Of a DNA stretch of 64,000 nt, positions 13,913 to 64,000 are shown one piece after another (position 1 is the stretch's first letter; the number at the start of each line of letters is the position of its first letter). The stretch is from Bacteriovoracaceae bacterium (GTDB lineage: Bacteria; Bdellovibrionota; Bacteriovoracia; Bacteriovoracales; Bacteriovoracaceae): contig JADHTQ010000004.1 of NCBI GenBank assembly GCA_016784965.1, positions 17,990 to 81,989 on the forward strand. The letters are read 5' to 3'. The notes below the pieces were generated by a model. That model ran no database searches and had not been told where the DNA came from. It saw only the letters and a program-made list of their open reading frames with translations. Both the position numbers and the translations under genes were made by a program.

Positions 13913-14030
13913 CGCGGACAATCCTCCGCATAATTTATCGGTATTTTTGGCATTTAACTTTAAAATCAAAGGGTTGTTGTGGCCCTGTTTGCCAATTTTT
14001 AAGTGCCTAGGGCCCAAACAAAGCATTTAG

Positions 14031-38859: not shown

Positions 38860-38866
38860 TTACTTT

Positions 38867-40432
38867 TTAACTCTCCTGGATAAAGGTTATATAAAATGCC
38901 TTGGCAAAATTATCCTTTCCCATAATTGAGGTTACATATAAATTAAAATTCCTACCTGTAAGCTCATAACTACCATCTTGGCTAGTACCTCCATTGTTTG
39001 CAGAATTATCACATAGCTCAATTAAAGTTGCAGCAAATCCTCTCTCTTTGGCCACATCTAGAATGTTTTGTCCTTGAGAGACTGACATTCTAATACCGGT
39101 AATGTCTTCAGCATCTACATTTAACCGTTGTACATTTTTGGAAGAATCCAAAATCATAACCGGGACACCTGCTCCATTCATAAATTCTGCCAAAGATGTT
39201 ACATAAGGGGCATCATCTTCGGCTTCACCAAATTCTTCCTCTGTTCCATCACTTTGCAATTCTCTAATTCGCTGCAAAGTAGTATTTACTGCATTTTTTA
39301 AACTATCCAGCTCACCCATTAAATATTTGCCTTCAATCCCTTTTCTTTTGCCCCTTAGGGCCTCTTCCATTTGTAATGTCAGCTCTTCGATCGGTCTTAA
39401 AGTTAAAAAATAAATTACACCAAAAAATAACACTGCCACCAAAGCAGAAGTGGTGAGCGATTCTAAGTATGCCTTCGAATTTTTTGCGGCCTCTATCGCC
39501 AAAGATTTTGGACGAAATCTAATGGCAATTATTCCAACGGGCTCCATCGCCCCAGATTTAGCGTTATAGGCCATAATCCTTCCGGCAATACCGATTTGTC
39601 CACCTGGGAGCATTTTCTTTATAATACTGGTTCCTTCCCCCTTTACATTAACTGCCCACTCTCTGGCTTGAATGGAGAATGTATCTGAAATGAAATCATT
39701 GAGCTGTCCAATTGGCCTAACAATTCTACCTTCCAAATCAAACAGTTCGTAAGAAGCGACTCCCTGTTCTTTTTCCAAAAAGTTGGTGTTAACATTATCA
39801 AGATTATTTTGCTCAAGGGCGACAGCATTCATCCTGGCTATCTCATCAGCAAAGTGCTCCCCTCTTTTTGCAGTTTCCCATAGCAGAAGCTTCTTGCTAT
39901 CTTGTAAAACTGGAAAAATTGTAAGAGTAATTGTCACAAAGACAAATAAAGTAAGAATTAGCGCTATTAATATTTTCCACTCATATTCCTCATTGATTCC
40001 ATAAAGCAAAAGCATCAGCTTATACTTGAATTTATGCTTAATTTTTGCAATTAAACCAACAGGTACTTCATTACTACCATCAAGTGCTAACTGGGCACCA
40101 TCTTCATCGCTTTCTACTTCTTTGTGGATAATGATCTTTTTTTCCTTAACCAAAACTACTTGAATAATCAAGTTAGGTAGAGCAATTTTATCACCGCTTT
40201 TAACCGTCGCTCTTTTGATCATTTTTCCGTTCAAAAAAGTACCATTGGCACTTCCTTGATCTTCAACATACATTGCATCTTCTGTCACTGTAACACTAAG
40301 ATGTTTTTTAGAAACTCCAGGAACATCTATGCTTATATCTGCATCGGGGTCTCTTCCTAAAATATTTTCTCCCTCAGCAAGCTCAAACTCTTGCCCCCTT
40401 AATTTCCCAGCAACAATTACTAATTTATACAT
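38867..40432 (-). CDS. FHA domain, two-TM sensor-like protein with HAMP-like and PAS-like C-terminal regions
   Basis: NILGRDPDADISIDVPGVSKKHLSV...SANGTFLNG FHA motifs. Two TM helices flank a ~150-aa loop. An amphipathic HAMP-like linker precedes a C-terminal ~110-aa alpha/beta module. Confidence 0.7.
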   Translation of the reverse strand: MYKLVIVAGKLRGQEFELAEGENILGRDPDADISIDVPGVSKKHLSVTVTEDAMYVEDQGSANGTFLNGKMIKRATVKSGDKIALPNLIIQVVLVKEKKIIIHKEVESDEDGAQLALDGSNEVPVGLIAKIKHKFKYKLMLLLYGINEEYEWKILIALILTLFVFVTITLTIFPVLQDSKKLLLWETAKRGEHFADEIARMNAVALEQNNLDNVNTNFLEKEQGVASYELFDLEGRIVRPIGQLNDFISDTFSIQAREWAVNVKGEGTSIIKKMLPGGQIGIAGRIMAYNAKSGAMEPVGIIAIRFRPKSLAIEAAKNSKAYLESLTTSALVAVLFFGVIYFLTLRPIEELTLQMEEALRGKRKGIEGKYLMGELDSLKNAVNTTLQRIRELQSDGTEEEFGEAEDDAPYVTSLAEFMNGAGVPVMILDSSKNVQRLNVDAEDITGIRMSVSQGQNILDVAKERGFAATLIELCDNSANNGGTSQDGSYELTGRNFNLYVTSIMGKDNFAKAFYITFIQES

Positions 40433-51748: not shown

Positions 51749-52837
51749 ATGGTCTCACAAATATCGAAACTATATAAGCCAGACTTTAAACCGTCTGAAC
51801 TACCACCTGAATATACCCCAAGGTCCGTGGTTTTAGAGACCACTTTTGCCTGCAATATGAGGTGCCGCCATTGTGGGACTTCGTGTGGTGATATTAAAAC
51901 TGATGAGTTATCTCTAACAGAACACTTACAGTTAGCTAGTGAGCTGGCGTCTCTGGGTACCAAAGAAATATTTCTTTCTGGTGGAGAAGCATTGATGAAT
52001 CCCGACTGGATCACAATCGCCAATAAGTACGACGAGCTTGGAGTTCGCGTAGTTTTGCTATCTAATGGACTCTTAATTCCAAAAAATATTGAGGCAATTA
52101 AAAAGGCCCCTTTAGATCAAATTGCTATCAGCATTGATGGAATGGAAAAGACCCATGACCATATAAGAAAAGTTAAAGGCTCTTTTAAAAAATGCCTAGA
52201 AGCAATCACACTGATTGAAAAACAAACATCAATTAATACCTCAGTCATAACCACAGTATCAAAGTGGAATATCTCTGAGCTAGAAGATCTATATCAGGCG
52301 TTAATTGCTGTAGATAATCGTTTATGGCAACTACAAAGAGTCTTCCCCACCGGTAGAATGGATAAAGATTTCATTTTAGATTTTGATGATATTGAAAAGC
52401 TTCACAAATTTATCCATGATAAAAGACAAAATCAGTCTAAAATGATTATCACTGCTGCTTGTGATGCAACGCCGTTTTCTAAGTACAATACCAGGGATAT
52501 TGGCGACCAATATATGGGGTGTCCTGCAGGACTTGTCTGTTTGGGAATTGAGGCAAATGGCAACGTTAAAGGCTGCTTGACTCAATCTGAAGAATTTATA
52601 GAAGGAAATGTACGAAAGAAGGGGTTAACTGAAATTTGGAATAACCCTTATAATTTTGCATATAATCGTTTTTTTCACGACGATAAAGTAAAAAAGGGGT
52701 GTGTTGGTTGCGCTTATCTTGAAGATTGTCGTTGCGGTTGTGCCATCCAAGCATTTGCTGAGTCTGGTGACCGCTATGATCAGCTATTTTGTCTAAACTC
52801 ACAATATTTCAAAGACTATAATGAACAAAATAAATGA
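51749..52837 (+). CDS. radical SAM enzyme with C-terminal SPASM domain (peptide-modifying maturase-like)
   Basis: CNMRCRHC (CX3CX2C) near the N-terminus. C-terminal Cys-rich region GCPAGLVCLGIEANGNVKGC...GCVGCAYLEDCRCGCA is typical of SPASM auxiliary clusters. 362 aa. Confidence 0.8.
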   Translation: MVSQISKLYKPDFKPSELPPEYTPRSVVLETTFACNMRCRHCGTSCGDIKTDELSLTEHLQLASELASLGTKEIFLSGGEALMNPDWITIANKYDELGVRVVLLSNGLLIPKNIEAIKKAPLDQIAISIDGMEKTHDHIRKVKGSFKKCLEAITLIEKQTSINTSVITTVSKWNISELEDLYQALIAVDNRLWQLQRVFPTGRMDKDFILDFDDIEKLHKFIHDKRQNQSKMIITAACDATPFSKYNTRDIGDQYMGCPAGLVCLGIEANGNVKGCLTQSEEFIEGNVRKKGLTEIWNNPYNFAYNRFFHDDKVKKGCVGCAYLEDCRCGCAIQAFAESGDRYDQLFCLNSQYFKDYNEQNK

Positions 52838-54953
52838 TGAAAAACGATATTCATATGCTTATTTACTAAAATATTTCTACTCATTTGTAAAAAAATACAT
52901 CTTACAAGAATTTGCCGTTACACTCTTAATTGGACTAAGTATCACCGTTAATATCGGCATTCCTCTTATCAATAAAACCTTGGTAGATGATGCTATTATT
53001 GCCAAAGATCTATCTCTGCTTTTTAATATCTTATATATCTACATCGGTATCATTTTGGGGGGACAGCTAATTAACGTCACTATGGAGTACTTGCAAAACA
53101 GTGTGCAAGAGAAGATCTCCATGGATATTTATAAAATGCTGTTTAAAAAAATGCTTAGTATGAAGATGCTACCTCTTAACAACTTTTCCAACACAGAGAT
53201 AGTTAATCGCTTTATCATGGATGCAGATGCCATCAAATCTTTAATCGCTGACTTTTTTATTACGGTACTCACCCAAATAATTTATTTTTTGGGTATCCTG
53301 GTGGTGATGCTGTCGCTTTCATGGAAGCTAACTATACTGGCATTAATTCCAGTCCCCATTTACCTGGTCACTTTTTTATTCTTTAATAAAAAGATCAGAG
53401 TTATTTCTAGGCTCCTTCGCAATAAGTTTGATAACTTAACCCAATTTATTAATGAGAGTTTTTTGGGGTCTACTGAGATAAGAATTTCAGGTAGCACCAA
53501 TTTTGTGTATTCAAAGTTTCAAGATAAAATCCTCTCTATTTTCAATGTGGCAATGAAAAGTGTCGTCCAAAGTAATGCCATTTCAGTAGTCATAGGTCTT
53601 ATAACCGCTTCGGGCAACTTGATTTTATGGTTTTATGGAGGATATTTAGTTATCGAAGGCCAGCTAAGCTTGGGCACCCTCTTTGCGCTTTCTGCTTATA
53701 TCGGTCAATTATACGATCCCATAAATATCTTGGCAGGTAGAAATTTTAAAATTCAATCTTCAATCTTTGCCATCGAGCGAATCCATGATTTTTTAAACCA
53801 ACCCCAGGAGCCCCTTTGGGATCAAAGCGAGTCTAAATATGAAAAAGGCTTTAGGGATTCTATCAAAGTATCAGGACTATCATTTAATTACCCAGAATCA
53901 ACTGATCTTGTAATCGATAATAAATCATTTGAGATAAATAAGGGTGATCGAATTTTGTTAACCGGTGCTAATGGATCGGGCAAGTCTACATTCATCAATA
54001 TTTTACTTCGCTTATATGATCACCAGCTAGGTGTAATTAAAATTGATAACACAAACATCCAACAAATTCCCATCCAGCAGTATAGAAGCCTATTTGCTTA
54101 TGTGCCTCAACACCCCTTTTTATTTGAAGGAACTGCTACCAGTAACATCTCGATGTTAGATACAAACGCTAACTTAAACAATTTTAAAAAATTCTTATCT
54201 AGGCTGCCTTTTTTAGACTTCTTCTCTAAAAAAAGTGGTCCCTATTCGGTCAGCAACAATGGCAACAACTTATCAGGTGGACAAAAGCAAAAGCTCAGCC
54301 TACTTAGATCTCTATACAAAGATGCACCAATAATCATTATAGATGAAGGGACTTCCAATATTGATGCCGAGTCTCTTTCTAAATTTGATCAATTTATTGA
54401 AAATAATTTGCAAGACAAAACTATCATCAGGGTTTCCCATAACCAAAATGAACATCTAAAAAATTATAAATTTATCCATTTTGACCGCATCATGCCCCAA
54501 GTATATCAAGATAAAATTATAAAATTAATACAAGAAAATAAACTAGACAGTGCAAAAGAGGCAATTGAGTCCCTGTTAAAGCATTATCAAGACATCAATT
54601 TATTTAAAAACTTGGCCTTTATAAAGTATATGCAAGGCAATTTCTCTGAATGCCTTACACTTAATCAAAAGGCATTACAAATTGATCCCGGTGATGTCTA
54701 CGCCACCAAGGGGCTAGGTCTGGCCTTCGCTAAACTGGGAGACTTAGAAAAAGGAATAGAGCATTTAAAGTCGGCCCAAACCCTTGATTCGACATACTTT
54801 GATCCATTTTACGACATGGCCGTAATATACTACGAAAATGGACAATTTGAAAATGCCTTAAAAACACTAAAGTTGACTCCTGTTAGCTCAAATGAGGAGC
54901 GGGACTTAGTTGCAAACTTTATCCAGAGTATAAAAAAAGATGACAAGATATAA
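52821..54953 (+). CDS. ABC exporter (fused TMD-NBD) with C-terminal TPR extension
   Basis: Six predicted TM helices, Walker A GANGSGKST, signature LSGGQKQKLSLLRSL and Walker B IIIIDEGTS. A ~150-aa TPR-like tail follows (FKNLAFIKYMQGNFSECLTLNQKALQIDP...). No N-terminal C39 peptidase domain. Overlaps the rSAM gene by 17 nt. Confidence 0.8.
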   Translation: MNKINDEKRYSYAYLLKYFYSFVKKYILQEFAVTLLIGLSITVNIGIPLINKTLVDDAIIAKDLSLLFNILYIYIGIILGGQLINVTMEYLQNSVQEKISMDIYKMLFKKMLSMKMLPLNNFSNTEIVNRFIMDADAIKSLIADFFITVLTQIIYFLGILVVMLSLSWKLTILALIPVPIYLVTFLFFNKKIRVISRLLRNKFDNLTQFINESFLGSTEIRISGSTNFVYSKFQDKILSIFNVAMKSVVQSNAISVVIGLITASGNLILWFYGGYLVIEGQLSLGTLFALSAYIGQLYDPINILAGRNFKIQSSIFAIERIHDFLNQPQEPLWDQSESKYEKGFRDSIKVSGLSFNYPESTDLVIDNKSFEINKGDRILLTGANGSGKSTFINILLRLYDHQLGVIKIDNTNIQQIPIQQYRSLFAYVPQHPFLFEGTATSNISMLDTNANLNNFKKFLSRLPFLDFFSKKSGPYSVSNNGNNLSGGQKQKLSLLRSLYKDAPIIIIDEGTSNIDAESLSKFDQFIENNLQDKTIIRVSHNQNEHLKNYKFIHFDRIMPQVYQDKIIKLIQENKLDSAKEAIESLLKHYQDINLFKNLAFIKYMQGNFSECLTLNQKALQIDPGDVYATKGLGLAFAKLGDLEKGIEHLKSAQTLDSTYFDPFYDMAVIYYENGQFENALKTLKLTPVSSNEERDLVANFIQSIKKDDKI

Positions 54954-55878
54954 CTTTATAACCTTACTTACAATAGCTACTTTTTTAATCAACACAAGCG
55001 CTACTGCTCTTAACATTACCCTCGACCACAATTTATCTGCCAAACTTGAGGCGGGATATCTCTATCAAAAAAGCTCTAAGACCTCTAAGTTTTTTTTACA
55101 AAGGTTCTATTTGGGCCAAAATTTATTTATTGATCAACAAAGTAAAATCAAGCTTGGAGCAGACCTATATGCTGATAACTATCAAAGTAGTTCCAAGCAG
55201 TTTAAGCTCATCTACGGCTACTATGAAAAAAAACTTTCATCTATTTCAAAAAGTAAATTTAGGATTGGTTTGCTACAAACCCCATGGATTAGCTGGATGG
55301 ATAATTTCTGGGGTAATCAAGTCATCTCAAGTTCGACCCTTTTGCAAATGCAGCACACTCACAGTCAAGTAGACACGCTACCTGAAAAAAGTGAAGTAGG
55401 ACTTTCTTTTGAACAATGGAAAAATAAATTTAATTACTACTTAAGTGTTACTAACAAACTAGATGCCTTAGATCCTACATTTTCTTTTAGAATGGGTTAT
55501 TTTCCCTACGTAAATGAGAAATCACTTAGTAAAAATAGCATCCTTGTATACAGCAGATTAAGTACCAACAGACAAGTTGAATCCAATATTGTTGGAGGTG
55601 TGATCTCCACTGGGTACCAAGATACTTTTCACCTCTACTTTGAGTCAATGTACTTCTTTTTGCCCAAAATTCACTCAAGTGGTATCTACCTAAATGTCAA
55701 GTTACTAGATGAGCTCTACAGTTTTTTTAGATATGTATATAATGATGATAACCTGAACCTCGATTCATCTAATGTTTTTGATATGGGCTTTAAGTATAAA
55801 TTAGACAAATCAACGACGCTATTTCTTTCTTTGGCGAATAGATCCGCCTGGTCCCTCTTTCTAACAGCAAAATTTTAA
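54940..55878 (+). CDS. outer-membrane beta-barrel (porin-like) protein
   Basis: Signal peptide (ITLLTIATFLINTSATA), alternating beta-like segments and a terminal Phe (LFLTAKF). Overlaps the ABC gene by 14 nt. Confidence 0.5.
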   Translation: MTRYNFITLLTIATFLINTSATALNITLDHNLSAKLEAGYLYQKSSKTSKFFLQRFYLGQNLFIDQQSKIKLGADLYADNYQSSSKQFKLIYGYYEKKLSSISKSKFRIGLLQTPWISWMDNFWGNQVISSSTLLQMQHTHSQVDTLPEKSEVGLSFEQWKNKFNYYLSVTNKLDALDPTFSFRMGYFPYVNEKSLSKNSILVYSRLSTNRQVESNIVGGVISTGYQDTFHLYFESMYFFLPKIHSSGIYLNVKLLDELYSFFRYVYNDDNLNLDSSNVFDMGFKYKLDKSTTLFLSLANRSAWSLFLTAKF

Positions 55879-55882
55879 AAAT

Positions 55883-57043
55883 TTAGATCCAGACTCCGGG
55901 TATCTGCTCGCCACAGGAGCACTTGCCACCTTGTAATAAATTATTTTGGATACTATATCCATTTCTTTTAATTACATGGGTTTTGCATTTTGGGCAGATT
56001 GTATCTTGATAGTCACTACCTGGGACATTTCCTACATAAACAAAATGAAGGCCTGCAACTTTGGCCACTCTGTAGGCTTCCTCTAAAAGGGGGATCGGGG
56101 TAGAAGGAAGATAGCGCAAATTGTACGCTGGATGAAATCGAGAAAAATGCAGTGGCACATCCCTGCCTAAATTTTCTACAATCCACTTACACATCTGCTC
56201 TATATCTTTTAAATCATCTGAGTGGTGGGGAACAACTAACCTGGTGATCTCTATCCAAACATCATTTTGTCGCATAATCTCAAGGCCCTTTAAAACTGGG
56301 GCAAGCTGAGCATTGGTCATTTTTTTATAAAAAGAATTACTAAAACTTTTTAAATCTACATTGGCGGCATCAATTGATTTACATAACTGCTTTAAGGGTG
56401 ACTCGTTTATATATCCCGCTGTTACTAACACATTTTTAACATTATTGTTTTTGGCCACAAGGGCCGTATCTTCTACATATTCATAAAAAATTATGGGCTC
56501 TGAGTAGGTATAGGCAATTGAAGTAAGTTTTTTCGCTTTTGTTAGCTCCACTACCTTTTGTGGCATTAGGTCCATATTTGTAGTTTCGCCTGGACGAGAT
56601 TGAGATATTTCCCAGTTTTGACAGTTTGAGCAGCGCAAATTACAACCGGCAGTGGCCAAGGATAAAATACCTGTTCCGGGTAAAAAATGATAAAGGGGCT
56701 TTTTTTCTATGGGATCAATGTGCAAGGCACAGGGGTTACCATAGGCCACAGTATACAACTGATTATTTTTAACTACCCTTGTTCGACAAAAACCTCGATC
56801 ATTTTCGGCCAATATGCATTGATGAGGACATAAACTACATTCCACCATACCACCAACACTACTTTGCCATAGGGCCTTTTTAGACCACTTCCACAAATTT
56901 GCTGGTGCATCGTTATAAAACCCTACTCTGAGCCCATAACGATTATTTCCAGTTATTATGTCATTGATCGTATAAGCGCCTAAAGCTGTGCCACCTGTGG
57001 CTATGATGAACTTTTTTAAAAATGTTCGTCTGGTGACTGACAA
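55883..57043 (-). CDS. AmmeMemoRadiSam-type (PflA-like) radical SAM enzyme carrying an N-terminal twin-arginine signal
   Basis: CSLCPHQCILAENDRGFCRTR, CNLRCSNCQNWEIS (CX3CX2C) and C-terminal CPKC...CSCGEQIPGVW match that family's pattern. The N-terminus (M)SVTRRTFLKKFIIATGGTALGAYT fits the (S/T)RRxFLK Tat consensus. TTG start 7 nt after AAGGAA. Confidence 0.7.
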   Translation of the reverse strand: MSVTRRTFLKKFIIATGGTALGAYTINDIITGNNRYGLRVGFYNDAPANLWKWSKKALWQSSVGGMVECSLCPHQCILAENDRGFCRTRVVKNNQLYTVAYGNPCALHIDPIEKKPLYHFLPGTGILSLATAGCNLRCSNCQNWEISQSRPGETTNMDLMPQKVVELTKAKKLTSIAYTYSEPIIFYEYVEDTALVAKNNNVKNVLVTAGYINESPLKQLCKSIDAANVDLKSFSNSFYKKMTNAQLAPVLKGLEIMRQNDVWIEITRLVVPHHSDDLKDIEQMCKWIVENLGRDVPLHFSRFHPAYNLRYLPSTPIPLLEEAYRVAKVAGLHFVYVGNVPGSDYQDTICPKCKTHVIKRNGYSIQNNLLQGGKCSCGEQIPGVWI

Positions 57044-57121
57044 GATTTCATTCCTTAAAAAAGGTTGGAATCATTTATTCTATCATGAAAACTTGTCTTG
57101 TCATTATTTGCAAGAAGGTAT

Positions 57122-58099
57122 TTAGAAGGCTTTTTTGATCACATTGTCTCGAATGGGGATTGGATCTTGCAAATATTGGTTCAGGGCAGAAACTAGCTTT
57201 TCAATGCTTTCTGATTGTCCCTGTAGAGATCTTACAAGATGTGACATATTTACTACGCCACCTTTATCTTTTGCATGATACCCAACTTTATCCCACAAGG
57301 CCTTAAGGCACTCTTCAAAATCCTCAATGGTTTGGTCTTGCAAGGCATCCGTTGCAAAAAATCCATTTAGTAAGGTTAACACTATAGAGAAAGTAATACC
57401 TACAATACTTGAGTTTAGGGCAAAAGAAATTTGGGTTAAAAAACTTGCAATTACCTCTTTGGCCGATCCCGGATCACCAACTAAGTCAAGTCCGCCAATA
57501 ATGGGCAGAGCACCCATCATTCCCAAAAATGTTCCAAGAATACCAAACACAATCATCAGGCCTGGAATAATTTGTAAAAAGCGACTAAGTGAAGGAATTG
57601 GAAGTATTCCAAATAAAACATTACTATTATTTGATTGCGAAAATATTCTGTGGGAAAACTCTTCAAAATTTGGAGTTCCATCACTTTGGCTGTACAATTC
57701 TTTATGGTGAACATCTTGCACTAGTTCATACAAGCTTATATCATATTTAAAAATAACATCCAACCTAGTCCTACTTTTATCAAACCTTCTGTGTTGATGA
57801 GCTCTTCTTTTGGTTACATACGAATCAAGTGCCTTATCACAAACCTTGTGTACAACCTCTTTATACCTATCGATTATTGACTCATTGTCATGTATATCAT
57901 CTTCTAAGGTTCCCTCTTTGTTGTAATAGTCCATTTCCTTTTTAATAAATACGACAAACCTATTATCGATCTTAAAGCTTTGTTTAATTAACACTTTAAG
58001 GATTATTGAGACAAAAAAGACCACTATCATAGCAGGGACTAAGTTGTTCATGAGACCTAGAACATAAATATTATAAATTTCGCGAAAAATATTTTCCAT
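57122..58099 (-). CDS. MotA/TolQ/ExbB-family proton-channel protein (3-TM ExbB-like topology)
   Basis: IIPGLMIVFGILGTFLGMMGAL carries the family G-x-L-G-T-x-x-GM motif. A second C-terminal TM pair partner is ISFALNSSIVGITFSIVLTLLNG. One N-terminal TM helix and a ~130-aa loop. RBS GAGG lies 13 nt after the upstream stop. Confidence 0.7.
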   Translation of the reverse strand: MENIFREIYNIYVLGLMNNLVPAMIVVFFVSIILKVLIKQSFKIDNRFVVFIKKEMDYYNKEGTLEDDIHDNESIIDRYKEVVHKVCDKALDSYVTKRRAHQHRRFDKSRTRLDVIFKYDISLYELVQDVHHKELYSQSDGTPNFEEFSHRIFSQSNNSNVLFGILPIPSLSRFLQIIPGLMIVFGILGTFLGMMGALPIIGGLDLVGDPGSAKEVIASFLTQISFALNSSIVGITFSIVLTLLNGFFATDALQDQTIEDFEECLKALWDKVGYHAKDKGGVVNMSHLVRSLQGQSESIEKLVSALNQYLQDPIPIRDNVIKKAF

Positions 58100-58112
58100 C
58101 TCTATTACCTCA

Positions 58113-60620
58113 TCACAGTTTTATAGTGTCTAAATATTCTAAATCCTTCTTTGTGAGTGCTTTTACCAGGGAAAGTTTAATTTCTACTCTCCTTGATAAT
58201 CGACAATCATAGGGCCCACATCTTTGTTTATCTGCAACACTGGCCAGCTGTCGTGTAGGAGCAGATAAAACAATGGACTCCGCGTGAGAGCTGCCCTTTA
58301 TAGATGCTATATTTTGCATTTTCCCTCTGTTTTTTAAACTGATGGGAAAAGTTTTATGCTTGTTTATAAATAAAAAGCGGTAAACAGCGGCAGCACGCTG
58401 AAGACTTAGGTCCATATTGTAAGAATGAGCTACCTTATTTACTGCCGTCGGAGAAACATAATGTCCAACGTATCTGGGACTTGAGTGCCCTTCGATGAGA
58501 ATCTTGTCCACTTTGGCCCTTATTTGTTTGTTAGAAAAAAAGTACCTTAAAATTATTTTAGAGGTACGCAAAAGCCTCATTTTCATCCTGGTGCTGAGTA
58601 GATAACTATCAACTTTAAAAAGTAAGTCATTTACAAAGACAAATGAAATTTCATTTTTAATTCTGTCATATTTGACTATGGCATTACCACCAACTGCTCT
58701 TGTTAGTAAGGTCTCTAACTTGTCATAGTTGTTTACTTCTGCAGGGGTGAGAGTTCTATATTTTTGCAGCTGTTGGTTAGCTCGCCTCAAATGACCGAGG
58801 CTCTCTCTTAAAGTGGAGTTGTCCTTACTTAGATCTCTATTTTTTTTGCCTAATCTATCAAGCCCCAATAACTTTAAAAGAGACTTCTCCTGCTGTTTGG
58901 CCTGCTTTGCAAAAGCTCCCCTTTTTAGAGTTTGAAATGGATCAACAGCAGACTGAGCTCGTACAATTTGAGCAGATTTTTCTTTGGCCTTTACTAGTTG
59001 TCTTCGCAGTTTTCCAATTACATTTCTGCTGTTTTGAATTGCCTTATCATTTTCACCAATCATCTCTTTGAGCTGCCCATTGGTCTTTGCTATGCCTTCT
59101 AACTTCTGTCTAACTTTACCACCCATAAGCTTACTCTCGCCCAGGGCATTCTTCAGATCACCAATTTGTTTACGCAGAGCTGACAACATTTCTTGCTGTC
59201 TTTTGACCTGACCGGCAGCATTTTTATTTAACTCCTCCAGTGCCTGCTTTTGACTTTTTGCAACTGAAGCTGTTTTGCGACTTGCCTCTATCATTTTTTC
59301 TTTGGCATGTAGTTGGGCAGTCTTCTCGTTGATTTCATTTTGATTCTTCTGCAGCATCTGTTTATATTTTTCATTAGCCGCTTTTAAATTATTTAACTCA
59401 AGTTGTGCGGCTGTTGCTGTTTTGCGACTTGCCTCTATCATTTTTTCTTGTGCATTTAGTTGGGCCGTCTTCTCATTGATCTCATTTTGATTCTGCTGCA
59501 CCATTTGTTTATATTTCTCATTGGCGACTCTTAAAGTATCTAACTCTTTTTGAGCACTGGCATTTGTCATCTCCCTTTGTTGCAGGGCACTTTTTGCTTC
59601 CGCCATGTCTTTTGAAATTTTATCAATTTTAGCTTTTCTTATTTTTGCTAGCTCTATACTTTTTTGATATTCATCTTTATAGTCTTCTAGTACCTTCTTA
59701 CTATGAACTAGCTCTAATTTAGCGAGTTTTGCGGCCTTGATTAGTTTATCTGTCTGCTTAATTAGCTTTTGCTTCTTACTAATTTCAAGTTGTTTTTGTT
59801 CAATTGTTTGCTTTAATTTACTATTAACTTCCTCAGTTTTAGCAAACTTTTGTTGAACTTGTGAACTCTCCAACTCTCTTTGCTTTAAGCTTTCTTTCAT
59901 CACGTCAATTTTTTTACTTAGCTGTGTTATTTGCTCTTGTTTGTTCTGTGATAGTTGTTCAACTTTTTTATAATCTTCTTCGACAATCTTTTTCTGCTGC
60001 GCCATGGCCTTTTCATGGTCCCTGGCAGCTTTTATCATTTTATTTTTAATCCTTATGACTTCTGCTTTTTTAGATATTTTTTCCTTATTATTTTCAATCT
60101 GTCTTTCATACTCTCGCTTTACATCTTCAAGTTTTTTGAGCTTCACTTTATTTTTTACTACCTTGTCAGCTTCAACTTTTAAATCACTCTCAAGCATCTT
60201 AACTTTTTGAGCAAGGGCCTCAAGTTTGGTGTGCTTTCTTTTACTAAGTGCCGCAATTTTCATGTAATCGGTCTTATAATCTTCAATGATCTTCTTTTGA
60301 TTTTTAACCGTCTCAACAAAGGTATTCATCTCCTGAAGCTTTTGTTGCCAATCTTCCATATCCTTATACGTCTGCTCTAAGGACTCGGTTCTTTTTTGTA
60401 CATTATGGGTAATTTTAGTTGGGATATCTTTGTCAACGTTGATCTTTTCGTCTTCAAATTCCTGCTTTAAAACAGCAGTATTGATCCCTTCTTTTACCGC
60501 ACTAAAAATGTACAACATCAAAAAGATGATAAACAAGACAGTAAAAAGATCACTGTAGCTTGCCCAAAACGTACCATCTTCACCTTGTTTCTTTTTTAAT
60601 TTTTTTGCTAATTTATTCAT
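58113..60620 (-). CDS. MotB-like protein: MotB-type TM/plug with conserved Asp + ~570-aa coiled coil + OmpA-like peptidoglycan-binding domain
   Basis: WASYSDLFTVLFIIFLMLYIF matches the MotB W-x-x-Y-x-D-x-x-T-x-L TM motif. A long K/E/Q-rich heptad region follows. C-terminal IEGHSSPRY...DLSLQRAAAVYRFL...LSRRVEIKL is OmpA-like. Confidence 0.7.
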   Translation of the reverse strand: MNKLAKKLKKKQGEDGTFWASYSDLFTVLFIIFLMLYIFSAVKEGINTAVLKQEFEDEKINVDKDIPTKITHNVQKRTESLEQTYKDMEDWQQKLQEMNTFVETVKNQKKIIEDYKTDYMKIAALSKRKHTKLEALAQKVKMLESDLKVEADKVVKNKVKLKKLEDVKREYERQIENNKEKISKKAEVIRIKNKMIKAARDHEKAMAQQKKIVEEDYKKVEQLSQNKQEQITQLSKKIDVMKESLKQRELESSQVQQKFAKTEEVNSKLKQTIEQKQLEISKKQKLIKQTDKLIKAAKLAKLELVHSKKVLEDYKDEYQKSIELAKIRKAKIDKISKDMAEAKSALQQREMTNASAQKELDTLRVANEKYKQMVQQNQNEINEKTAQLNAQEKMIEASRKTATAAQLELNNLKAANEKYKQMLQKNQNEINEKTAQLHAKEKMIEASRKTASVAKSQKQALEELNKNAAGQVKRQQEMLSALRKQIGDLKNALGESKLMGGKVRQKLEGIAKTNGQLKEMIGENDKAIQNSRNVIGKLRRQLVKAKEKSAQIVRAQSAVDPFQTLKRGAFAKQAKQQEKSLLKLLGLDRLGKKNRDLSKDNSTLRESLGHLRRANQQLQKYRTLTPAEVNNYDKLETLLTRAVGGNAIVKYDRIKNEISFVFVNDLLFKVDSYLLSTRMKMRLLRTSKIILRYFFSNKQIRAKVDKILIEGHSSPRYVGHYVSPTAVNKVAHSYNMDLSLQRAAAVYRFLFINKHKTFPISLKNRGKMQNIASIKGSSHAESIVLSAPTRQLASVADKQRCGPYDCRLSRRVEIKLSLVKALTKKDLEYLDTIKL
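59269..59562 (-). repeat. tandem duplication, 2 x 147 nt (49 aa), inside the coiled-coil region
   Basis: GCTGTTTTGCGACTTGCCTCTATCATTTTTTC... recurs at 59269 and 59416. The protein copies are ANEKYKQMVQQNQNEINEKTAQLNAQEKMIEASRKTA and ANEKYKQMLQKNQNEINEKTAQLHAKEKMIEASRKTA. Confidence 0.85.
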
Positions 60621-60690
60621 AAAAACTCTTTTGCAAAAATACCTCGTCCTCTTATCGAGGTTTCTGCTGAAAACTTAAGTAATTTTTGAC

Positions 60691-63537
60691 TCATCGCGCC
60701 AAGCGACTGAAATTAGTTACTATGCCAATAGGACACAGCAGACGACAAAAACTTCTGCGAATAAATATAGACAAAATATTGAAAAAAATGACAGCACCCA
60801 CGATTGTAGCACTGGTGGTGTAGCTGTTATGAAAAAAATAATTATACCAGTCAAAATTAGATGAAGACAGCGATTTAGAGGGACCATCAACTTTTATATA
60901 TAGCCCAATAACCACAATGACAATTACAGCTGAAACAAAGCTGATCAACTTTGATTTTTTTAAACTACTGCGACAAATTTGGGCCTGACCATCTTCTAAA
61001 GTGCCGATGGGACACATTCCATAGCACCACATCTGGCGGTCTAAGTTGATAAGCAGTGCCGCTGGGATAAAATATGCTCGCATAATGCCAAAAACACACT
61101 TTCTAGGACATGCATGACAAAAAATATAAGGTACACTAAAGTAGCATCTAAACAATGGATAAATTGCTAAAGGCCAAAAAGCAAAAAAATAAATCCATGA
61201 AGTATACTTCACATTGAATTGCCATTTGGGGTTGTAGGCGACAGTAATTTTCCAAGCAAGTATTATCAACAAAACATAGTGCAACCAGGGCCTAAGAGAA
61301 AAGGCATACACAATTGCATTGGTTTTTGGTATAACCATTGAAAGTCCAATCCCCCAAAAGATAAATAACATCAATCCATAACTTAAAAATTGCTCTAAAT
61401 TTACGTCCTTAAATGGCCTATAAGCGGATGTAACTTTTGGGATTACAACTAATCCCAAAATTGATGTGATCTTTATAAGCATAATGATCAACAAGGACTT
61501 GTGAATTCCCAAATAGGGGATCATAAATGCACTTATTAAAAATGCTCCCAGCGCTCCTCCCAAAAAATCTAAAGCATAGACAAATCCAGCGGTTTCAGTG
61601 GCGTTTACGGGTGACGTTTTTGCAATGTAGGCCAACTGGCCCCCCAATAAAATACCAAATAGGGTGTTATAAACTGGTGTTGCAAATGCTGAAGATAAGG
61701 GGCCAATTACAATTACAAAAATAAACAAAACAATCAAAAAGTCAGCTTTTAAAAGCAGCCTGGAGGTGTTTAACTTAGATCCAAAGAAGGCACCAATTGC
61801 CAAGCCAAGAATAAAACATGTAATAATAAAACTTAGTTGGTTGTAAAGATATCCAAAACGTATTTGGTATAGCAAAATGAGAATTACTTGCATTCCCATT
61901 GCACTAAAGCTACTAGACAAAAGAGTAAATGAATCCGCAAGCTCACTGCTTTTTGCTAATAAAATAAAGACAACAATAACAATTCCCAAAATTAATAATA
62001 TGGGAATTAAAAGAGTTGCATCTAGCTTTTTTAACCAGTATTGAAAATGATAGTAGTATCCAATGGGTGATAGATCCCGATTTACAAGTGAGTTCGACTG
62101 CACTAAAACTTTTGCCTGTCTTAAGCGATCTGGGGTTAAGATACTTTTTAGATAATTGGAATTGACAAACTTGGTATCTAACTTCTCTTTTTTAATTTTG
62201 TCACCAATGTTGTAACTTAAAGCACTAGCAGATGCCAGAAAATAGTTTTGACCCCCTGGAATTATTATTATCTGCTCAAAACAATTTGCCAGGGCCTTAT
62301 AAACTGATGATGAAAATTGCTTTAACTCTTCAGAGTCGTAATTGGCAGAACTGCTAAGGGCAAAAGACAAAATACCACCTTTACCAAGTGCACCTTTTAC
62401 AATTTTAAAAAATTCTTGAGTATAAAACCTTCCAATTTGTGCATTGATTGGATCGGGCAGATCAATTATAACGACATCGTATTTATGCTCACCTGAAGTG
62501 TTTGCCAAAAATTTGATAGCATCACCACTAATGAAATTAACTTTTGGTTTAGTGATAGTTGATGCTTGTTTTTTGGCAAGAGCTAAAATTAATGGGTTTT
62601 GTTCTACCAGATCAATACTGTTAGCGTCATGGTATTTGGCAACTTCAAATATCAAATTATTAACACCTCCAGAAACAAGCAAAACCCTCTTAGGCAAGGG
62701 GTGTTGAATCATGGCATAATGAACTATCTCTTCTGACTGGCCAACATGAGGTATTGAAGCAATTGGAGTTCCATTTTCATAAATACTTACTTGACCTCTA
62801 TCTTCAGTTATAGCAACAACACCATAAGGAGTTGATTGATGTAGCAATATTTTTTTTGTGGGATATTGTGCTTTTAGTATTTTTTCTTCTAAGGAACCGC
62901 TCACAATTACAACCGGTACAACAATGGCCAGCAAAGTGGCAACTATGCTTAAGCTCTTATACTGGTAGTAATAAGTTAAAACTGCGGCCACAAGCAAGTT
63001 TATTACACACAACAAGACCAATGTTTGGAAGGAGTCCAAAAAATAAACAAGACAAAAACTAAAAAGCAATCCCCCAACTAAATCGCCAAGAGAATCTAGA
63101 AAATATATTTTAGCAACTCCTGCACCTTCTTGATAATCCTTAGTGATTATAAAAACAAAAAAGGTCATTAGGGCACCAGAGAGCAAACAAATTGGCAAAA
63201 GTCCCACAAAAGAGAGCCAAAAGGCTTGAAACAATCCGACAGAAATGCCTACAACAATGATACTTTTGTAAATCGTTAACGCCCAAAACAAAAGCAGTGG
63301 CAAGATGGCGAGGATAAATTGACAAATAATTAAAAGGACTTTTGTATTTTTAATCTTCTGGCCAAATTGGCCAATAAATGCACCCGTGCCTTGAAGAAGC
63401 GCCCAGTTGCCTAAAACCAGACCAATGGTTAGCTCATTGCCAGAAAATAGTGTGAGAAATTCTCTAAGAAAAACAAACTGAGTGATTAAAGCAGAGATTC
63501 CAAGTGAAGTGATACACAAATATATTACATAACTCAT
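60691..63537 (-). CDS. polytopic membrane fusion: N-terminal multi-TM + spermidine-synthase-like (SAM-fold) domain + second multi-TM block + C-terminal CX3CP (NapH/NosR/CcoG-like) module
   Basis: VLLVSGGVNNLIFEVAKY...DLVEQNP...YDVVIIDLPDP...FYTQEFF are SpeE-like motifs flanked by many TM helices. The C-terminal ~200 aa contains FCHACPRKC, WCYGMCPIG and FCRLLCPIG between TM helices. Confidence 0.65.
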   Translation of the reverse strand: MSYVIYLCITSLGISALITQFVFLREFLTLFSGNELTIGLVLGNWALLQGTGAFIGQFGQKIKNTKVLLIICQFILAILPLLLFWALTIYKSIIVVGISVGLFQAFWLSFVGLLPICLLSGALMTFFVFIITKDYQEGAGVAKIYFLDSLGDLVGGLLFSFCLVYFLDSFQTLVLLCVINLLVAAVLTYYYQYKSLSIVATLLAIVVPVVIVSGSLEEKILKAQYPTKKILLHQSTPYGVVAITEDRGQVSIYENGTPIASIPHVGQSEEIVHYAMIQHPLPKRVLLVSGGVNNLIFEVAKYHDANSIDLVEQNPLILALAKKQASTITKPKVNFISGDAIKFLANTSGEHKYDVVIIDLPDPINAQIGRFYTQEFFKIVKGALGKGGILSFALSSSANYDSEELKQFSSSVYKALANCFEQIIIIPGGQNYFLASASALSYNIGDKIKKEKLDTKFVNSNYLKSILTPDRLRQAKVLVQSNSLVNRDLSPIGYYYHFQYWLKKLDATLLIPILLILGIVIVVFILLAKSSELADSFTLLSSSFSAMGMQVILILLYQIRFGYLYNQLSFIITCFILGLAIGAFFGSKLNTSRLLLKADFLIVLFIFVIVIGPLSSAFATPVYNTLFGILLGGQLAYIAKTSPVNATETAGFVYALDFLGGALGAFLISAFMIPYLGIHKSLLIIMLIKITSILGLVVIPKVTSAYRPFKDVNLEQFLSYGLMLFIFWGIGLSMVIPKTNAIVYAFSLRPWLHYVLLIILAWKITVAYNPKWQFNVKYTSWIYFFAFWPLAIYPLFRCYFSVPYIFCHACPRKCVFGIMRAYFIPAALLINLDRQMWCYGMCPIGTLEDGQAQICRSSLKKSKLISFVSAVIVIVVIGLYIKVDGPSKSLSSSNFDWYNYFFHNSYTTSATIVGAVIFFNILSIFIRRSFCRLLCPIGIVTNFSRLAR

Positions 63538-63625: not shown

Positions 63626-64000
63626 TTATAGTTCAGTATTGAGCTTACAAGTTAAAAGAACGTCTCCAAAATCTTCAAGCTGCATTTTGCCTGTAATCAA
63701 AACTTCATCATCTGAAGCAACAGCAAGCTTCAACCAAAAGCGATGAATAGTTTCACCACCGTTTACTTCACCATCATCTGCATCAAATGCAAACGAGCCA
63801 TCTATTTTTTCAGGAAGCCCCATATCTTCTTTTGTTTTTGCTAAAAATGGTCCTGTTGCCAGCATAAAATGCACATCATCTATCTGTTGTGATAGTGCAG
63901 CTATGAAAGTTGGTCTTTTGGTATCGGGGCTGCTGATTTTGGCCACATCTGCTAGAATTCTCAATGTAACCTTTACTTTTTCCTCCTCAAATTGAGCTGA
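63626..64000 (-). CDS. hypothetical protein, probably 5'-truncated by the window edge
   Basis: The frame stays open to base 64000 (SAQFEEEKVKVTLRILADV...). The TTG at 63964 on the ORF track lies 17 nt after GGAGG, which is poor spacing. No motif recognised. Confidence 0.35.
   Translation of the reverse strand, partial: SAQFEEEKVKVTLRILADVAKISSPDTKRPTFIAALSQQIDDVHFMLATGPFLAKTKEDMGLPEKIDGSFAFDADDGEVNGGETIHRFWLKLAVASDDEVLITGKMQLEDFGDVLLTCKLNTEL

What the first reader, a model, noticed from the sequence alone, without database searches (positions are those of the whole stretch)
55883..63537. Four co-directional genes: SpeE-like/CX3CP membrane fusion, MotB-like giant coiled coil, ExbB/MotA-like channel, Tat-signal radical SAM enzyme
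Seen in sequence: four minus-strand genes separated by gaps of 70, 13 and 78 nt. No convincing terminator is present, only a weak 6-bp hairpin at 60641-60661. Established knowledge: MotA/ExbB plus MotB/TolR pairs convert proton-motive force into mechanical work. CX3CP motifs characterise NapH/NosR/CcoG-type membrane proteins that pass electrons towards periplasmic enzymes. AmmeMemoRadiSam-type rSAM enzymes normally travel with AMMECR1 and Memo homologs, and none is visible here. No flagellar, Ton or Tol partners are visible either. Inference (speculative): this could be an envelope machine in which a folded, cluster-loaded rSAM enzyme is exported by Tat. The CX3CP module would reduce it from the membrane, and the SAM-fold/transporter-like fusion could supply or bind the SAM-type cofactor. 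The stator-like pair would energise or anchor the assembly. I know of no described system with this composition.
Basis: partly seen in the sequence, partly recalled or inferred. Interest (0 to 1): 0.82.

Follow-up and report, generated by a model that had tools for sequence, protein, structure and literature searches.

The report
Two unrelated gene modules, one operon
The four genes are not one machine: a stator-like motor gene pair typical of predatory bacteria sits between a membrane protein and a radical SAM enzyme, which elsewhere form a conserved system predicted to work outside the cytoplasm.

Summary
The four minus-strand ORFs, their gaps (70/13/78 nt) and their domain assignments are all confirmed. 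The proposed four-gene machine is not a conserved unit.

Module 1 is the 948-aa fusion plus the radical SAM (rSAM) enzyme. The fusion reads 7 TM, SpeE-like domain, 7 TM, NapH-like Cys module. In 23 of 25 other full-length fusion loci, spread over many phyla, the rSAM gene follows the fusion gene directly. It is usually followed by a Memo-AMMECR1 fusion gene. The twin-arginine motif is present in 28 of 29 linked rSAMs. The Memo-AMMECR1 partners carry N-terminal signal or anchor segments. Loop charges place the SpeE-like domain on the outer face of the membrane. This is a membrane-coupled, apparently extracytoplasmic variant of the AmmeMemoRadiSam system. The window copy lacks an adjacent Memo/AMMECR1 gene.

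Module 2 is the MotB-like/MotA-like pair. It is an autonomous two-gene unit with B-before-A gene order and a B subunit of 444 to 2497 aa. It was found in 80 metagenome loci, and its named relatives are Bdellovibrionota. It never accompanies the fusion, rSAM or Memo genes (0 of 80 loci, and 0 of 41 in the reverse test). Here it lies between the two genes of module 1.

The stator role does not.

The parts
60691..63537 (-). 948-aa membrane fusion protein (module 1): 7 TM, SpeE-like domain, 7 TM, Cys module
   Evidence: ORF. AF2 model with pLDDT 83.9 and pTM 0.83. Pfam and NCBIfam hits. Full-length homologs at 30-37% identity.
62899..63537 (-). N-terminal 7-TM bundle (residues 1-213)
   Evidence: AF2 helices 2-30, 36-61, 65-93, 102-135, 140-166, 169-190 and 194-213. 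K+R-rich loops alternate, giving an N-in topology.
62098..62853 (-). SpeE-like (class I SAM-fold) domain, residues 229-480, predicted on the outer face of the membrane
   Evidence: Spermine_synth 75.5 bits. Foldseek matches 1uir and 1inl with TM-score (target) about 0.71. GGGDGG is replaced by SGGVNN; E312, D339 and DLPDP are kept. The domain lies on the K/R-poor side, flanked by 7 TM on each side.
61444..62010 (-). Second 7-TM bundle (residues 510-698)
   Evidence: AF2 helices 510-529 through 678-698, pLDDT about 90. Charge alternation.
60694..61398 (-). C-terminal NapH/NosR/RdhC-like Cys module (residues 714-948), about 6 helices
   Evidence: Scanned on its own: Fer4_5 28.5 bits (cutoff 22), and weak NapH/MauN hits in 7 of 7 members. 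Invariant Cys residues. It also occurs as a stand-alone gene of about 245 aa.
61096..61152 (-). Invariant FRC...CHxCPRxC motif (C798, C807, H808, C810, C814), predicted on the outer face
   Evidence: Invariant in 9 of 9 sequences. Coordinates. Lies in loop 17-18. pLDDT below 50, as expected for a cofactor loop.
61009..61026 (-). CX3CP motif 1 (C838-P843), predicted on the cytoplasmic face
   Evidence: K/R-rich loop 18-19.
60730..60747 (-). CX3CP motif 2 (C931-P936), preceded by RR, predicted on the cytoplasmic face
60635..60661 (-). Stem-loop followed by a U-run, between the fusion gene and the MotB-like gene (possible partial terminator)
   Evidence: Sequence. Fold energy -13.2 kcal/mol, z = -3.2, 0 of 200 shuffles as stable.
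58113..60620 (-). 835-aa MotB/ZorB-like B subunit with a coiled-coil-like middle of about 600 aa (module 2)
   Evidence: MotB_plug 30.7 bits. PADLOC ZorB1 2.4e-18 for residues 649-820. Family members of 444-1064 aa always lie directly upstream of the A subunit.
60549..60560 (-). SYSD motif: the membrane-embedded Asp24 of the B subunit
   Evidence: Coordinates. The Asp is invariant in all 37 complete family members.
59256..59549 (-). Tandem duplication of 147 nt (49 aa) inside the coil
   Evidence: the repeat finder family D1, 84% identity.
57122..58099 (-). 325-aa ExbB/TolQ/ZorA-type A subunit (module 2)
   Evidence: MotA_ExbB 21.8 bits. PADLOC ZorA2 3e-11. An exhaustive HMMER search finds 152 representatives. 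AF2 pLDDT 76. Best solved-structure matches are ExbB, ZorA and TolQ.
57077..57104 (-). Promoter-like site (ATGACA-16-TAGAAT, with TG) in the gap before the rSAM gene
   Evidence: It is a consensus match only; the scan as a whole is not above shuffles.
55883..57043 (-). 386-aa AmmeMemoRadiSam-type radical SAM enzyme (module 1)
   Evidence: TIGR04337 387 bits, cutoff 220. NCBI name under accession MBL6988648.1.
56957..57043 (-). Twin-arginine signal or signal-anchor (residues 1-29; RRTFLK at residues 5-10, then 16 uncharged residues)
   Evidence: The motif is kept in 28 of 29 orthologs. The TIGR04337 match starts only at residue 58.
56621..56644 (-). CX3CX2C radical SAM cluster motif (C134, C138, C141)
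   Evidence: Radical_SAM Pfam match over residues 131-287.

Best explanation
The locus is a composite of two independent modules.

Module 1 is the 948-aa fusion plus the rSAM enzyme. It is the membrane-coupled form of the AmmeMemoRadiSam system.
- The rSAM carries a twin-arginine signal or anchor. Its usual partner, a Memo-AMMECR1 fusion that is missing next door here, carries a Sec, lipoprotein or anchor signal. The SpeE-like domain of the 20-helix membrane protein is predicted to face outwards. On these predictions the catalytic parts meet on the outer face of the cytoplasmic membrane.
- By analogy with NapH, NosR and RdhC, the C-terminal CX3CP module passes reducing equivalents from the cytoplasmic side or the quinol pool to the exported enzyme (inferred).
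- The 14-TM plus SAM-fold part supplies or holds the adenosyl cofactor, or presents a membrane-bound substrate (inferred, weakest step).

Module 2 is the MotB-like/MotA-like pair. It is a self-contained ion-driven motor of the ExbBD/TolQR/ZorAB kind.
- Its B subunit carries a long periplasmic coiled coil of variable length, ending in a peptidoglycan-binding OmpA-like domain.
- It is typical of Bdellovibrionota and occurs in unrelated genomic contexts.
- In this Bacteriovoracaceae genome it lies between the two genes of module 1, with no sign that it works with them.

The confidence given (0.7) is for the composite as a whole. The two-module split is about 0.85, the extracytoplasmic location about 0.6, and the electron or cofactor supply role about 0.35.
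For: Module 1 linkage.
- All five full-length homologs looked up by identity have the rSAM gene directly downstream and a Memo-AMMECR1 gene next to it or nearby.
- A genome scan with the Cys module gave 36 loci. Of the 20 with a full-length fusion, 18 have the rSAM gene directly downstream. A Memo-AMMECR1 gene follows it in 15, and three contigs end before that point.
- Archaeal loci L022, L028 and L031 carry the same parts as separate genes.

Predicted location.
- RRxF[VIL][KR] is present in 28 of 29 linked rSAMs, followed by a median of 16 uncharged residues. This is an N-terminal extension relative to the TIGR04337 model.
- 18 of 19 Memo-AMMECR1 partners have an N-terminal hydrophobic signal or anchor; some have lipobox-like motifs.
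- K+R counts per loop alternate across all 20 helices in 25 sequences. They sum to about 37 on one side and about 7 on the other, with the SpeE-like domain on the poor side.
- Locus L033 adds a DsbD_2/CcdA-like gene to the operon.
- The Cys module matches Fer4_5 and NapH/MauN. NapH, NosR and RdhC share a four-segment membrane module with two CX3CP motifs and have been linked to electron transfer towards NapA, NosZ and PceA (PMC5928378).

Module 2 independence.
- In all 69 of the 80 loci that hold sequence upstream of the A gene, a long B-subunit ORF lies directly upstream of it. None of the 80 has the fusion, rSAM or Memo.
- Family HMMs of both subunits find nothing in the 41 module-1 loci.
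- The membrane Asp is invariant.
- The A-subunit fold is closest to ExbB, ZorA and TolQ.
- Named relatives are a Halobacteriovoraceae MAG, Pseudobacteriovorax and Oligoflexus, each in a different genomic context.
Against: - No experiment supports export. No TatP or SignalP run was possible.
- No AxA cleavage site is evident, so the N-terminus may be an uncleaved anchor.
- A radical SAM enzyme outside the cytoplasm needs SAM and a low-potential reductant there. I found no precedent for this in the searchable literature.
- A Cys cluster on the outer face of a polytopic protein would be hard to load with metal.
- AF2 confidence in the Cys module is only 50-75.
- The four genes are tightly spaced and co-directional, so co-transcription, and hence some local functional link, cannot be excluded.
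- The window lacks Memo/AMMECR1, so module 1 may work differently here or be incomplete.
- No repeats or other mobility marks flank the stator pair, so 'insertion' rests on comparison alone.
Confidence: 0.7

Rival explanations
1. One reading: all four proteins form one envelope machine. The stator-like pair uses proton-motive force to energise or anchor the exported rSAM and the CX3CP/SpeE fusion.
For: The genes are co-directional with gaps of 70, 13 and 78 nt. Terminator and promoter scans are not above background. Quinol-to-rSAM electron transfer would be uphill, so an energy input is conceptually attractive; the same problem is raised for RdhC in PMC5928378.
Against: 0 of 41 fusion or Cys-module loci carry the pair, and 0 of 80 pair loci carry the fusion, rSAM or Memo. 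In other genomes the fusion and rSAM genes abut or overlap. A stem-loop with a U-run follows the fusion gene, and a promoter-like site precedes the rSAM gene. The pair has its own recurrent downstream neighbours (FHA-domain or cNMP-binding proteins), which are absent here.
Confidence: 0.07
2. Module 1 acts on the cytoplasmic face. On this reading the RR motif and the hydrophobic N-termini are membrane tethers rather than export signals, and the SpeE-like domain is cytoplasmic, where SAM and reductants are available.
For: SAM, flavodoxin and ferredoxin are cytoplasmic (established knowledge). No cleavage site is evident after the h-region. One ortholog (L033) has a Sec-like rather than an RR N-terminus, which would not suit export of an FeS enzyme. 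Canonical AmmeMemoRadiSam members have no signal, since the TIGR04337 model starts at residue 58 of this protein.
Against: Positive charges precede the hydrophobic segment in the rSAMs and in the Memo-AMMECR1 partners, which predicts N-in and C-out. Some partners have lipobox-like signals. The K/R alternation on both sides of the SpeE-like domain independently places it on the K/R-poor face. The motif matches the full S/T-R-R-x-F-L-K consensus, not just two arginines.
Confidence: 0.25
3. The stator-like pair is a Zorya-type anti-phage defence module that has landed in this operon.
For: The best profile hits for both subunits are ZorA and ZorB models (NCBIfam, PADLOC). The precomputed Pfam hit is 'ZorA-like_t1'.
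Against: Scores are far below the curated cutoffs (31.6 against 250 for ZorA_3, 28.5 against 750 for ZorA1). The A subunit is 325 aa and lacks the long ZorA tail; the long coil is on the B subunit instead. The gene order is B then A. No ZorC, ZorD or ZorE-like neighbours were seen here or in the look-ups. The recurrent neighbours are FHA-domain and cNMP-binding proteins.
Confidence: 0.08

Closest known systems
AmmeMemoRadiSam system (NCBIfam TIGR04337 rSAM with AMMECR1-family and Memo-family partners)
   Same: The rSAM scores 387 bits against TIGR04337 (cutoff 220). NCBI already names it that way (MBL6988648.1). Orthologous loci carry Memo and AMMECR1 domains fused in one protein directly downstream.
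   Different: This clade has a twin-arginine N-terminal extension of about 57 aa. Its Memo-AMMECR1 partners have signal or anchor segments. A dedicated 20-helix membrane fusion gene lies directly upstream. In the window itself no Memo/AMMECR1 gene lies within about 56 kb downstream or about 7 kb upstream.
NapH / NosR / RdhC(PceC) membrane modules with two CX3CP motifs
   Same: Two CX3CP motifs sit at predicted cytoplasmic helix ends. There are several membrane segments. The Fer4_5 match is above threshold when the module is scanned alone. The partner gene encodes an enzyme with a Tat-type signal.
   Different: It has no C-terminal 2x[4Fe-4S] ferredoxin domain (found in NapH and NosR) and no FMN-binding domain (found in NosR and RdhC). 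It has an extra invariant FRC...CHxCPRxC motif. It is fused to a 14-TM/SpeE-like protein. NapH equivalog scores are far below cutoff (25.7 against 234).
Fused MFS/spermidine synthase (NF037959; PRK03612-type membrane SpeE)
   Same: It shares the N-terminal 7-TM bundle and the SpeE fold. NF037959 scores above cutoff (47.8 against 40). About 200 homologs of roughly 720 aa share the 7TM-SpeE-7TM core.
   Different: It carries the additional C-terminal Cys module. The dcSAM-selecting Asp of GGGDGG is absent. The first Asp of the D-x-x-D-P motif is not conserved in this clade. The SpeE and aminopropyltransferase equivalog cutoffs are not reached (134.9 against 472).
ExbBD / TolQR / ZorAB / MotAB ion-driven 5:2 motors
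   Same: The A subunit has the three-TM ExbB/TolQ/ZorA-like fold. The B subunit has a single N-terminal TM with an invariant Asp, a plug-like segment, and an OmpA-like C-terminal domain as in MotB and ZorB.
   Different: The gene order is B then A, whereas A then B was consistent in the survey of PMC12505986. The B subunit carries a periplasmic coiled coil of very variable length (444-2497 aa in total). No TonB, TolA, flagellar or Zor partner is present. The frequent downstream neighbour is an FHA-domain protein.

Membership tests
AmmeMemoRadiSam system | rSAM enzyme scoring above the TIGR04337 cutoff, with a CX3CX2C motif | tested here: met
   387.1 bits against a cutoff of 220. CNLRCSNC at residues 134-141.
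AmmeMemoRadiSam system | AMMECR1-family and Memo-family genes adjacent to the rSAM gene | tested here: not met
   No tblastn or HMM hit in the 64-kb window or in L001. The feature is met in orthologous loci: 20 of 25 have a Memo-AMMECR1 fusion gene next to the rSAM gene or nearby.
Tat (twin-arginine) substrate | S/T-R-R-x-F-L-K motif near the N-terminus, followed by an uncharged h-region of at least 13 residues | tested here: met
   TRRTFLKK followed by 16 uncharged residues. 28 of 29 orthologs have it, with a median h-region of 16 residues and mean Kyte-Doolittle hydropathy of 1.19.
Tat (twin-arginine) substrate | Demonstrated TatC-dependent export, or a signal-peptidase cleavage site | not testable with these tools
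   No TatP or SignalP was available. No AxA site is evident after the h-region, so it may be an uncleaved signal anchor.
NapH/NosR/RdhC CX3CP membrane module | Two conserved CX3CP motifs in a multi-helix membrane module | tested here: met
   C838x3C842P and C931x3C935P are invariant. The module alone gives Fer4_5 at 28.5 bits (cutoff 22) and NapH/MauN hits in 7 of 7 members. AF2 gives helices 714-922.
NapH/NosR/RdhC CX3CP membrane module | Accessory redox domain: 2x[4Fe-4S] ferredoxin motifs (NapH, NosR) or an FMN-binding domain (NosR, RdhC) | tested here: not met
   The protein ends 12 residues after the second CX3CP motif. There are no Fer4 or FMN_bind hits. The NapH equivalog scores 25.7 against 234.
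Spermidine synthase / polyamine aminopropyltransferase | SpeE fold (N-terminal beta-hairpin domain plus Rossmann-type domain) | tested here: met
   Pfam Spermine_synth 75.5 bits. Foldseek matches 1uir, 1inl and 3o4f with TM-score (target) of 0.69-0.74.
Spermidine synthase / polyamine aminopropyltransferase | GGGDGG loop with the Asp that selects decarboxylated SAM, and a conserved catalytic D-x-x-D-P | tested here: not met
   The loop is SGGVNN in the window and SGGLxG in the clade. DLPDP is present in the window, but the first Asp is Ala, Arg or Ser in orthologs. Equivalog cutoffs are not reached.
MotAB/ExbBD/TolQR-type 5:2 motor | A subunit of the MotA/ExbB/TolQ family | tested here: inconclusive
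   Pfam MotA_ExbB scores 21.8 against a 22.9 cutoff. Foldseek's best hits are ExbB, ZorA and TolQ, at E = 4e-3 and probability 1.0 but with low TM-scores.
MotAB/ExbBD/TolQR-type 5:2 motor | B subunit with a single N-terminal TM carrying a conserved Asp | tested here: met
   MotB_plug 30.7 bits against a cutoff of 24. The Asp of SYSD is invariant in 37 of 37 complete family members.
MotAB/ExbBD/TolQR-type 5:2 motor | Gene order A then B; 5:2 stoichiometry | tested here: not met
   The order is B then A here and in all 69 loci that hold sequence upstream of the A gene. Stoichiometry is not testable here.
Zorya (ZorAB plus ZorC/D/E) | ZorA with a long C-terminal tail, scoring above the family cutoffs, together with ZorC/D/E-type effector genes | tested here: not met
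   The A subunit is 325 aa. NCBIfam ZorA models score 16-32 bits against cutoffs of 100-750. No Zor partner genes appear in the neighbourhoods.

The most novel reading that the evidence does not exclude
A whole clade of AmmeMemoRadiSam systems works outside the cytoplasm. It is present in Desulfobulbales, Binatia, Planctomycetota, Verrucomicrobiota, Lentisphaeria, Omnitrophota and DPANN-type archaea. On this reading the radical SAM enzyme is exported folded by Tat and tethered to the membrane. It works with a secreted Memo-AMMECR1 protein and an outward-facing SAM-fold domain. A dedicated 20-helix membrane protein delivers electrons through a NapH-like Cys relay, and possibly the adenosyl cofactor, across the membrane. 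That would be radical SAM chemistry on an envelope or membrane substrate. It would also give a concrete handle on the unknown biochemical role of the Memo and AMMECR1 families.
Probability: 0.4. Interest if true: 0.8.

Novelty: new variant of a known kind. Interest (0 to 1): 0.55.

Why it matters
Memo and AMMECR1 are ancient families with human disease links, and no biochemical reaction has been established for them. Their bacterial three-gene system with a radical SAM enzyme is the main clue to what they do.

A variant in which every catalytic part carries an export or anchor signal, and in which a dedicated membrane protein combines a SAM-fold domain with a NapH-like redox module, points to a membrane or envelope substrate. 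It also suggests experiments: topology reporters, Tat dependence, and co-purification with the fusion protein.

Radical SAM chemistry outside the cytoplasm would be unusual in itself.

Separately, the B-before-A stator pair with a giant, length-variable periplasmic coil is an uncharacterised branch of the ion-driven motor superfamily. It has at least one cultured host, Pseudobacteriovorax.

The finding as originally framed, a four-gene machine, is not supported.

Tried and rejected
- **Literature.** Burroughs et al. 2019 (JBC; PMC6664185) extended the Memo/AMMECR1/rSAM gene contexts, but it is not held. I therefore cannot say whether this fusion context was already described there. Searches for AmmeMemoRadiSam, for AMMECR1 with spermidine synthase, for radical SAM with twin-arginine and periplasmic, and for AMMECR1 with MEMO1 gave nothing relevant.
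- **Word-index search with the MotA-like protein.** It found only itself and one weak hit. The exhaustive HMMER search was needed to find the family.
- **Stand-alone Cys modules.** The copies of about 245 aa in Omnitrophota and elsewhere have only housekeeping neighbours: GH1, DEAD and UvrD helicases, HAD, MoxR. They gave no functional clue.
- **Extra partners for module 1.** Clustering the neighbours of the module-1 loci produced nothing beyond the three known genes, apart from antisense or overlapping shadow ORFs and an occasional hybrid sensor kinase.
- **Mobility marks.** There are no direct or inverted repeats flanking the stator pair, and no compositional break, with GC at 0.35-0.375 across 54-64 kb.
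- **Membrane bundles against solved structures.** The Foldseek search of the fusion model returned only SpeE structures among the 50 matches shown. The '14-TM transporter' idea therefore has no structural support.
- **Zorya membership.** Considered and rejected; see the membership test.
- **Memo/AMMECR1 elsewhere in this genome.** This could not be checked, because only the window and one 10-kb extension are accessible.

Full report
**1. Observation.** The four minus-strand ORFs are at the stated coordinates, with gaps of 70, 13 and 78 nt.
- The rSAM enzyme (55883-57043) scores 387 bits on TIGR04337, 'AmmeMemoRadiSam system radical SAM enzyme' (cutoff 220). NCBI names it the same way (MBL6988648.1, Bacteriovoracaceae MAG).
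- The TIGR04337 match begins only at residue 58. The first 29 residues read MSVTRRTFLKK followed by 16 uncharged residues.
- The 325-aa protein is a weak MotA/ExbB match: 21.8 bits against a 22.9 cutoff, with ZorA-type PADLOC hits down to 3e-11.
- The 835-aa protein has a MotB_plug N-terminus (30.7 bits), a K/E/Q/L-rich middle of about 600 aa, and an OmpA/ZorB-like C-terminus (PADLOC ZorB1 2.4e-18).
- The 948-aa protein matches Spermine_synth (75.5 bits) and NF037959 'fused MFS/spermidine synthase' (47.8 bits, cutoff 40). It has two CX3CP motifs.
- No Memo or AMMECR1 coding sequence exists in the 64-kb window, or in the further ~6.5 kb upstream of the fusion gene that L001 adds beyond the window's end.
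It folds at -13.2 kcal/mol, z = -3.2.
- A 10/12 promoter-like site with an extended -10 TG lies in the gap before the rSAM gene. The promoter and terminator scans as a whole are not above shuffled background.

**2. The fusion and the rSAM are a conserved pair, normally with Memo-AMMECR1.**
- A protein search with the fusion found eight full-length relatives (30-37% identity, 942-1036 aa). It also found about 200 shorter relatives of roughly 720 aa that lack the C-terminal module.
- I looked up five of the full-length relatives. In all five the rSAM gene follows directly. A gene encoding Memo and AMMECR1 domains in one protein follows the rSAM gene in four of them and lies nearby on the other strand in the fifth.
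- A scan of one genome per species, using an alignment of the C-terminal Cys module, gave 36 loci, all MAGs. They come from Desulfobulbales, Binatia, Planctomycetota, Verrucomicrobiota, Lentisphaeria, Lindowbacteria, Nitrospinia, Omnitrophota and archaea.
- I annotated these loci with my own ORF calls and profiles:
  - 20 loci carry a full-length fusion, and 18 of these have the rSAM gene directly downstream.
  - Memo-AMMECR1 follows the rSAM gene in 15. Three contigs end before that point. One locus (L015) lacks it within 10 kb.
  - Three archaeal loci carry the same components as separate genes.
  - Eleven loci, mostly Omnitrophota, hold only a stand-alone Cys module of about 245 aa, with uninformative neighbours.

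**3. Module 1 is predicted to be extracytoplasmic.**
- 28 of 29 linked rSAMs have RRxF[VIL][KR]. It is followed by a moderately hydrophobic uncharged stretch (median 16 residues, mean hydropathy 1.19), then a conserved extension, GLRVGFxNDAPxxLWxWSxEAxWY.
- 18 of 19 Memo-AMMECR1 partners have a hydrophobic N-terminal signal or anchor before the first conserved Memo motif. Some have lipobox-like sequences.
- The AF2 model of the fusion (pLDDT 83.9, pTM 0.83) shows, in order:
  - seven helices (residues 2-213);
  - a complete SpeE fold (229-480; Foldseek TM-score about 0.71 to 1uir and 1inl);
  - seven more helices (510-698);
  - a less confident six-helix C-terminal module.
- Across 25 full-length sequences, K+R counts alternate from loop to loop without exception. 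They sum to about 37 on one side and about 7 on the other. This places the N- and C-termini and both CX3CP motifs on the cytoplasmic side.
- The same analysis places the SpeE-like domain and the invariant FRC...CHxCPRxC motif on the outer side. The parity holds independently on each side of the SpeE-like domain.
- Locus L033 adds a DsbD_2/CcdA-like membrane protein and a nitroreductase-family gene to the operon. The former is consistent with moving reductant across the membrane.

**4. What the domains suggest.**
- *SpeE-like domain.* It keeps the ribose-binding and adenine-binding acidic residues. It replaces GGGDGG with SGGVNN, or SGGLxG in the clade. This loses the Asp that, from established SpeE structural work, selects decarboxylated SAM. 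The first Asp of D-x-x-D-P is present here but not conserved in orthologs. I infer a nucleoside-binding or SAM-binding role rather than spermidine synthesis.
- *Cys module.* It passes the Fer4_5 threshold when scanned alone, and it weakly matches NapH/MauN in 7 of 7 members.
- *Analogy.* NapH, NosR and RdhC share a four-segment membrane module with two CX3CP motifs. They have been linked to electron transfer towards NapA, NosZ and PceA, and the first CX3CP motif of NapH is needed for contact with NapF (PMC5928378). That these enzymes are periplasmic Tat substrates, and that NapF is cytoplasmic, is established knowledge rather than taken from that paper.
- *Differences.* The module here lacks the ferredoxin and FMN domains of those proteins and has an extra four-Cys/His motif.
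- *Inferred mechanism.* Reducing equivalents enter at the cytoplasmic CX3CP side and reach the tethered rSAM outside. The 14-TM/SAM-fold part supplies or holds the cofactor, or presents a membrane substrate. These steps are inferred, not shown.

**5. The stator-like pair is a separate module.**
- The word-index search found no relatives of the A subunit. An exhaustive HMMER search found 152 representatives, 103 of them at E <= 1e-10. They are about 300 aa long and 25-35% identical.
- A metagenome scan with their alignment returned 80 loci.
- In all 69 of those loci that hold upstream sequence, a long B-subunit ORF lies directly upstream of the A gene. Complete copies are 444-1064 aa and match both the plug end and the OmpA-like end of the window protein. 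None of the 80 loci has the fusion, the rSAM or Memo.
- Family profiles of both subunits find nothing in the 41 module-1 loci.
- The membrane Asp (SYSD) is invariant in 37 of 37 complete B subunits.
- The A-subunit model (pLDDT 76) is closest to ExbB, ZorA and TolQ.
- Named relatives are a Halobacteriovoraceae MAG, Pseudobacteriovorax antillogorgiicola and Oligoflexus. In Pseudobacteriovorax the B subunit is 2497 aa, and the surrounding genes differ in each case.
- A frequent downstream neighbour is an FHA-domain protein of about 830 aa. A cNMP-binding protein sometimes takes that position. Neither follows the pair in the window.
- The B-then-A order contrasts with the A-then-B order reported as consistent for MotAB relatives (PMC12505986).
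- Zorya membership fails on score, architecture and partner genes.

**6. Verdict.**
A Tat-signal rSAM enzyme is paired with a membrane protein that carries a CX3CP module and a SAM-fold domain. This is a conserved association across many phyla.
- That association is best described as a membrane-coupled, apparently extracytoplasmic variant of the AmmeMemoRadiSam system. Its usual third gene is missing from this locus.
- The stator pair is a lineage-typical autonomous motor module lying between the two genes. Co-transcription here is possible, but there is no comparative evidence for a shared function.
- I could not read Burroughs et al. 2019, which may already describe this gene context. From memory, its abstract links Memo contexts to nucleotide-base and isoprenoid modification. 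The novelty rating is therefore cautious.

Noticed in passing
window 51749-55878 (+), convergent with the rSAM gene; also L001 18987-19214: A co-directional cluster lies here: a radical SAM/SPASM enzyme (362 aa), an ABC transporter with a C-terminal TPR region (710 aa), and a 312-aa protein with a signal-like N-terminus and no Pfam hit. A called 75-aa gene sits just upstream. It looks like a peptide-modification and export (RiPP-type) cluster, unrelated to the finding.
   Followed up: no
window 59256-59549: A tandem duplication of 147 nt (49 aa, 84% identity) lies inside the coiled-coil region of the MotB-like gene. Such duplications would explain the large length variation of B subunits in this family (444-2497 aa).
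   Followed up: partly
window 63626-64000 and L001 5723-6995: A 143-aa gene with no Pfam hit, and before it a TetR-family regulator gene, lie upstream on the same strand as the four genes. The co-directional block may therefore be six genes long. Neither gene is conserved upstream of the fusion in other genomes.
   Followed up: partly
L043-L122, L123, L125 (downstream of the MotA-like gene): The stator-like pair is often followed by a protein of about 830-1020 aa with an N-terminal FHA domain (18 loci with complete copies and 8 with truncated ones, plus the Halobacteriovoraceae locus). A small cNMP-binding protein sometimes takes that position. This hints at a cytoplasmic signalling partner for the motor.
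   Followed up: partly
window 57327-57710 (+): A 127-aa ORF lies antisense to the MotA-like gene. An equivalent antisense ORF appears in 51 of the 80 related loci. This is most simply a shadow of the conserved coding frame, not a gene.
   Followed up: partly
L033 5707-11124: An Omnitrophota locus carries a split version of module 1: an rSAM with a Sec-like rather than twin-arginine N-terminus, a DsbD_2/CcdA-like membrane protein, a separate 754-aa MFS/SpeE protein, a separate 246-aa Cys module, and a nitroreductase-family protein.
   Followed up: partly
window 6644-14026 (-): A very large ORF of 2460 aa. It was not examined.
   Followed up: no
window 35582-40432 (-): Three consecutive genes (747, 344 and 521 aa) give weak tblastn matches (E = 0.02-0.2) to the FHA-domain N-terminus of the protein that usually follows the stator pair in other genomes. 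The matches may simply reflect FHA domains.
   Followed up: no
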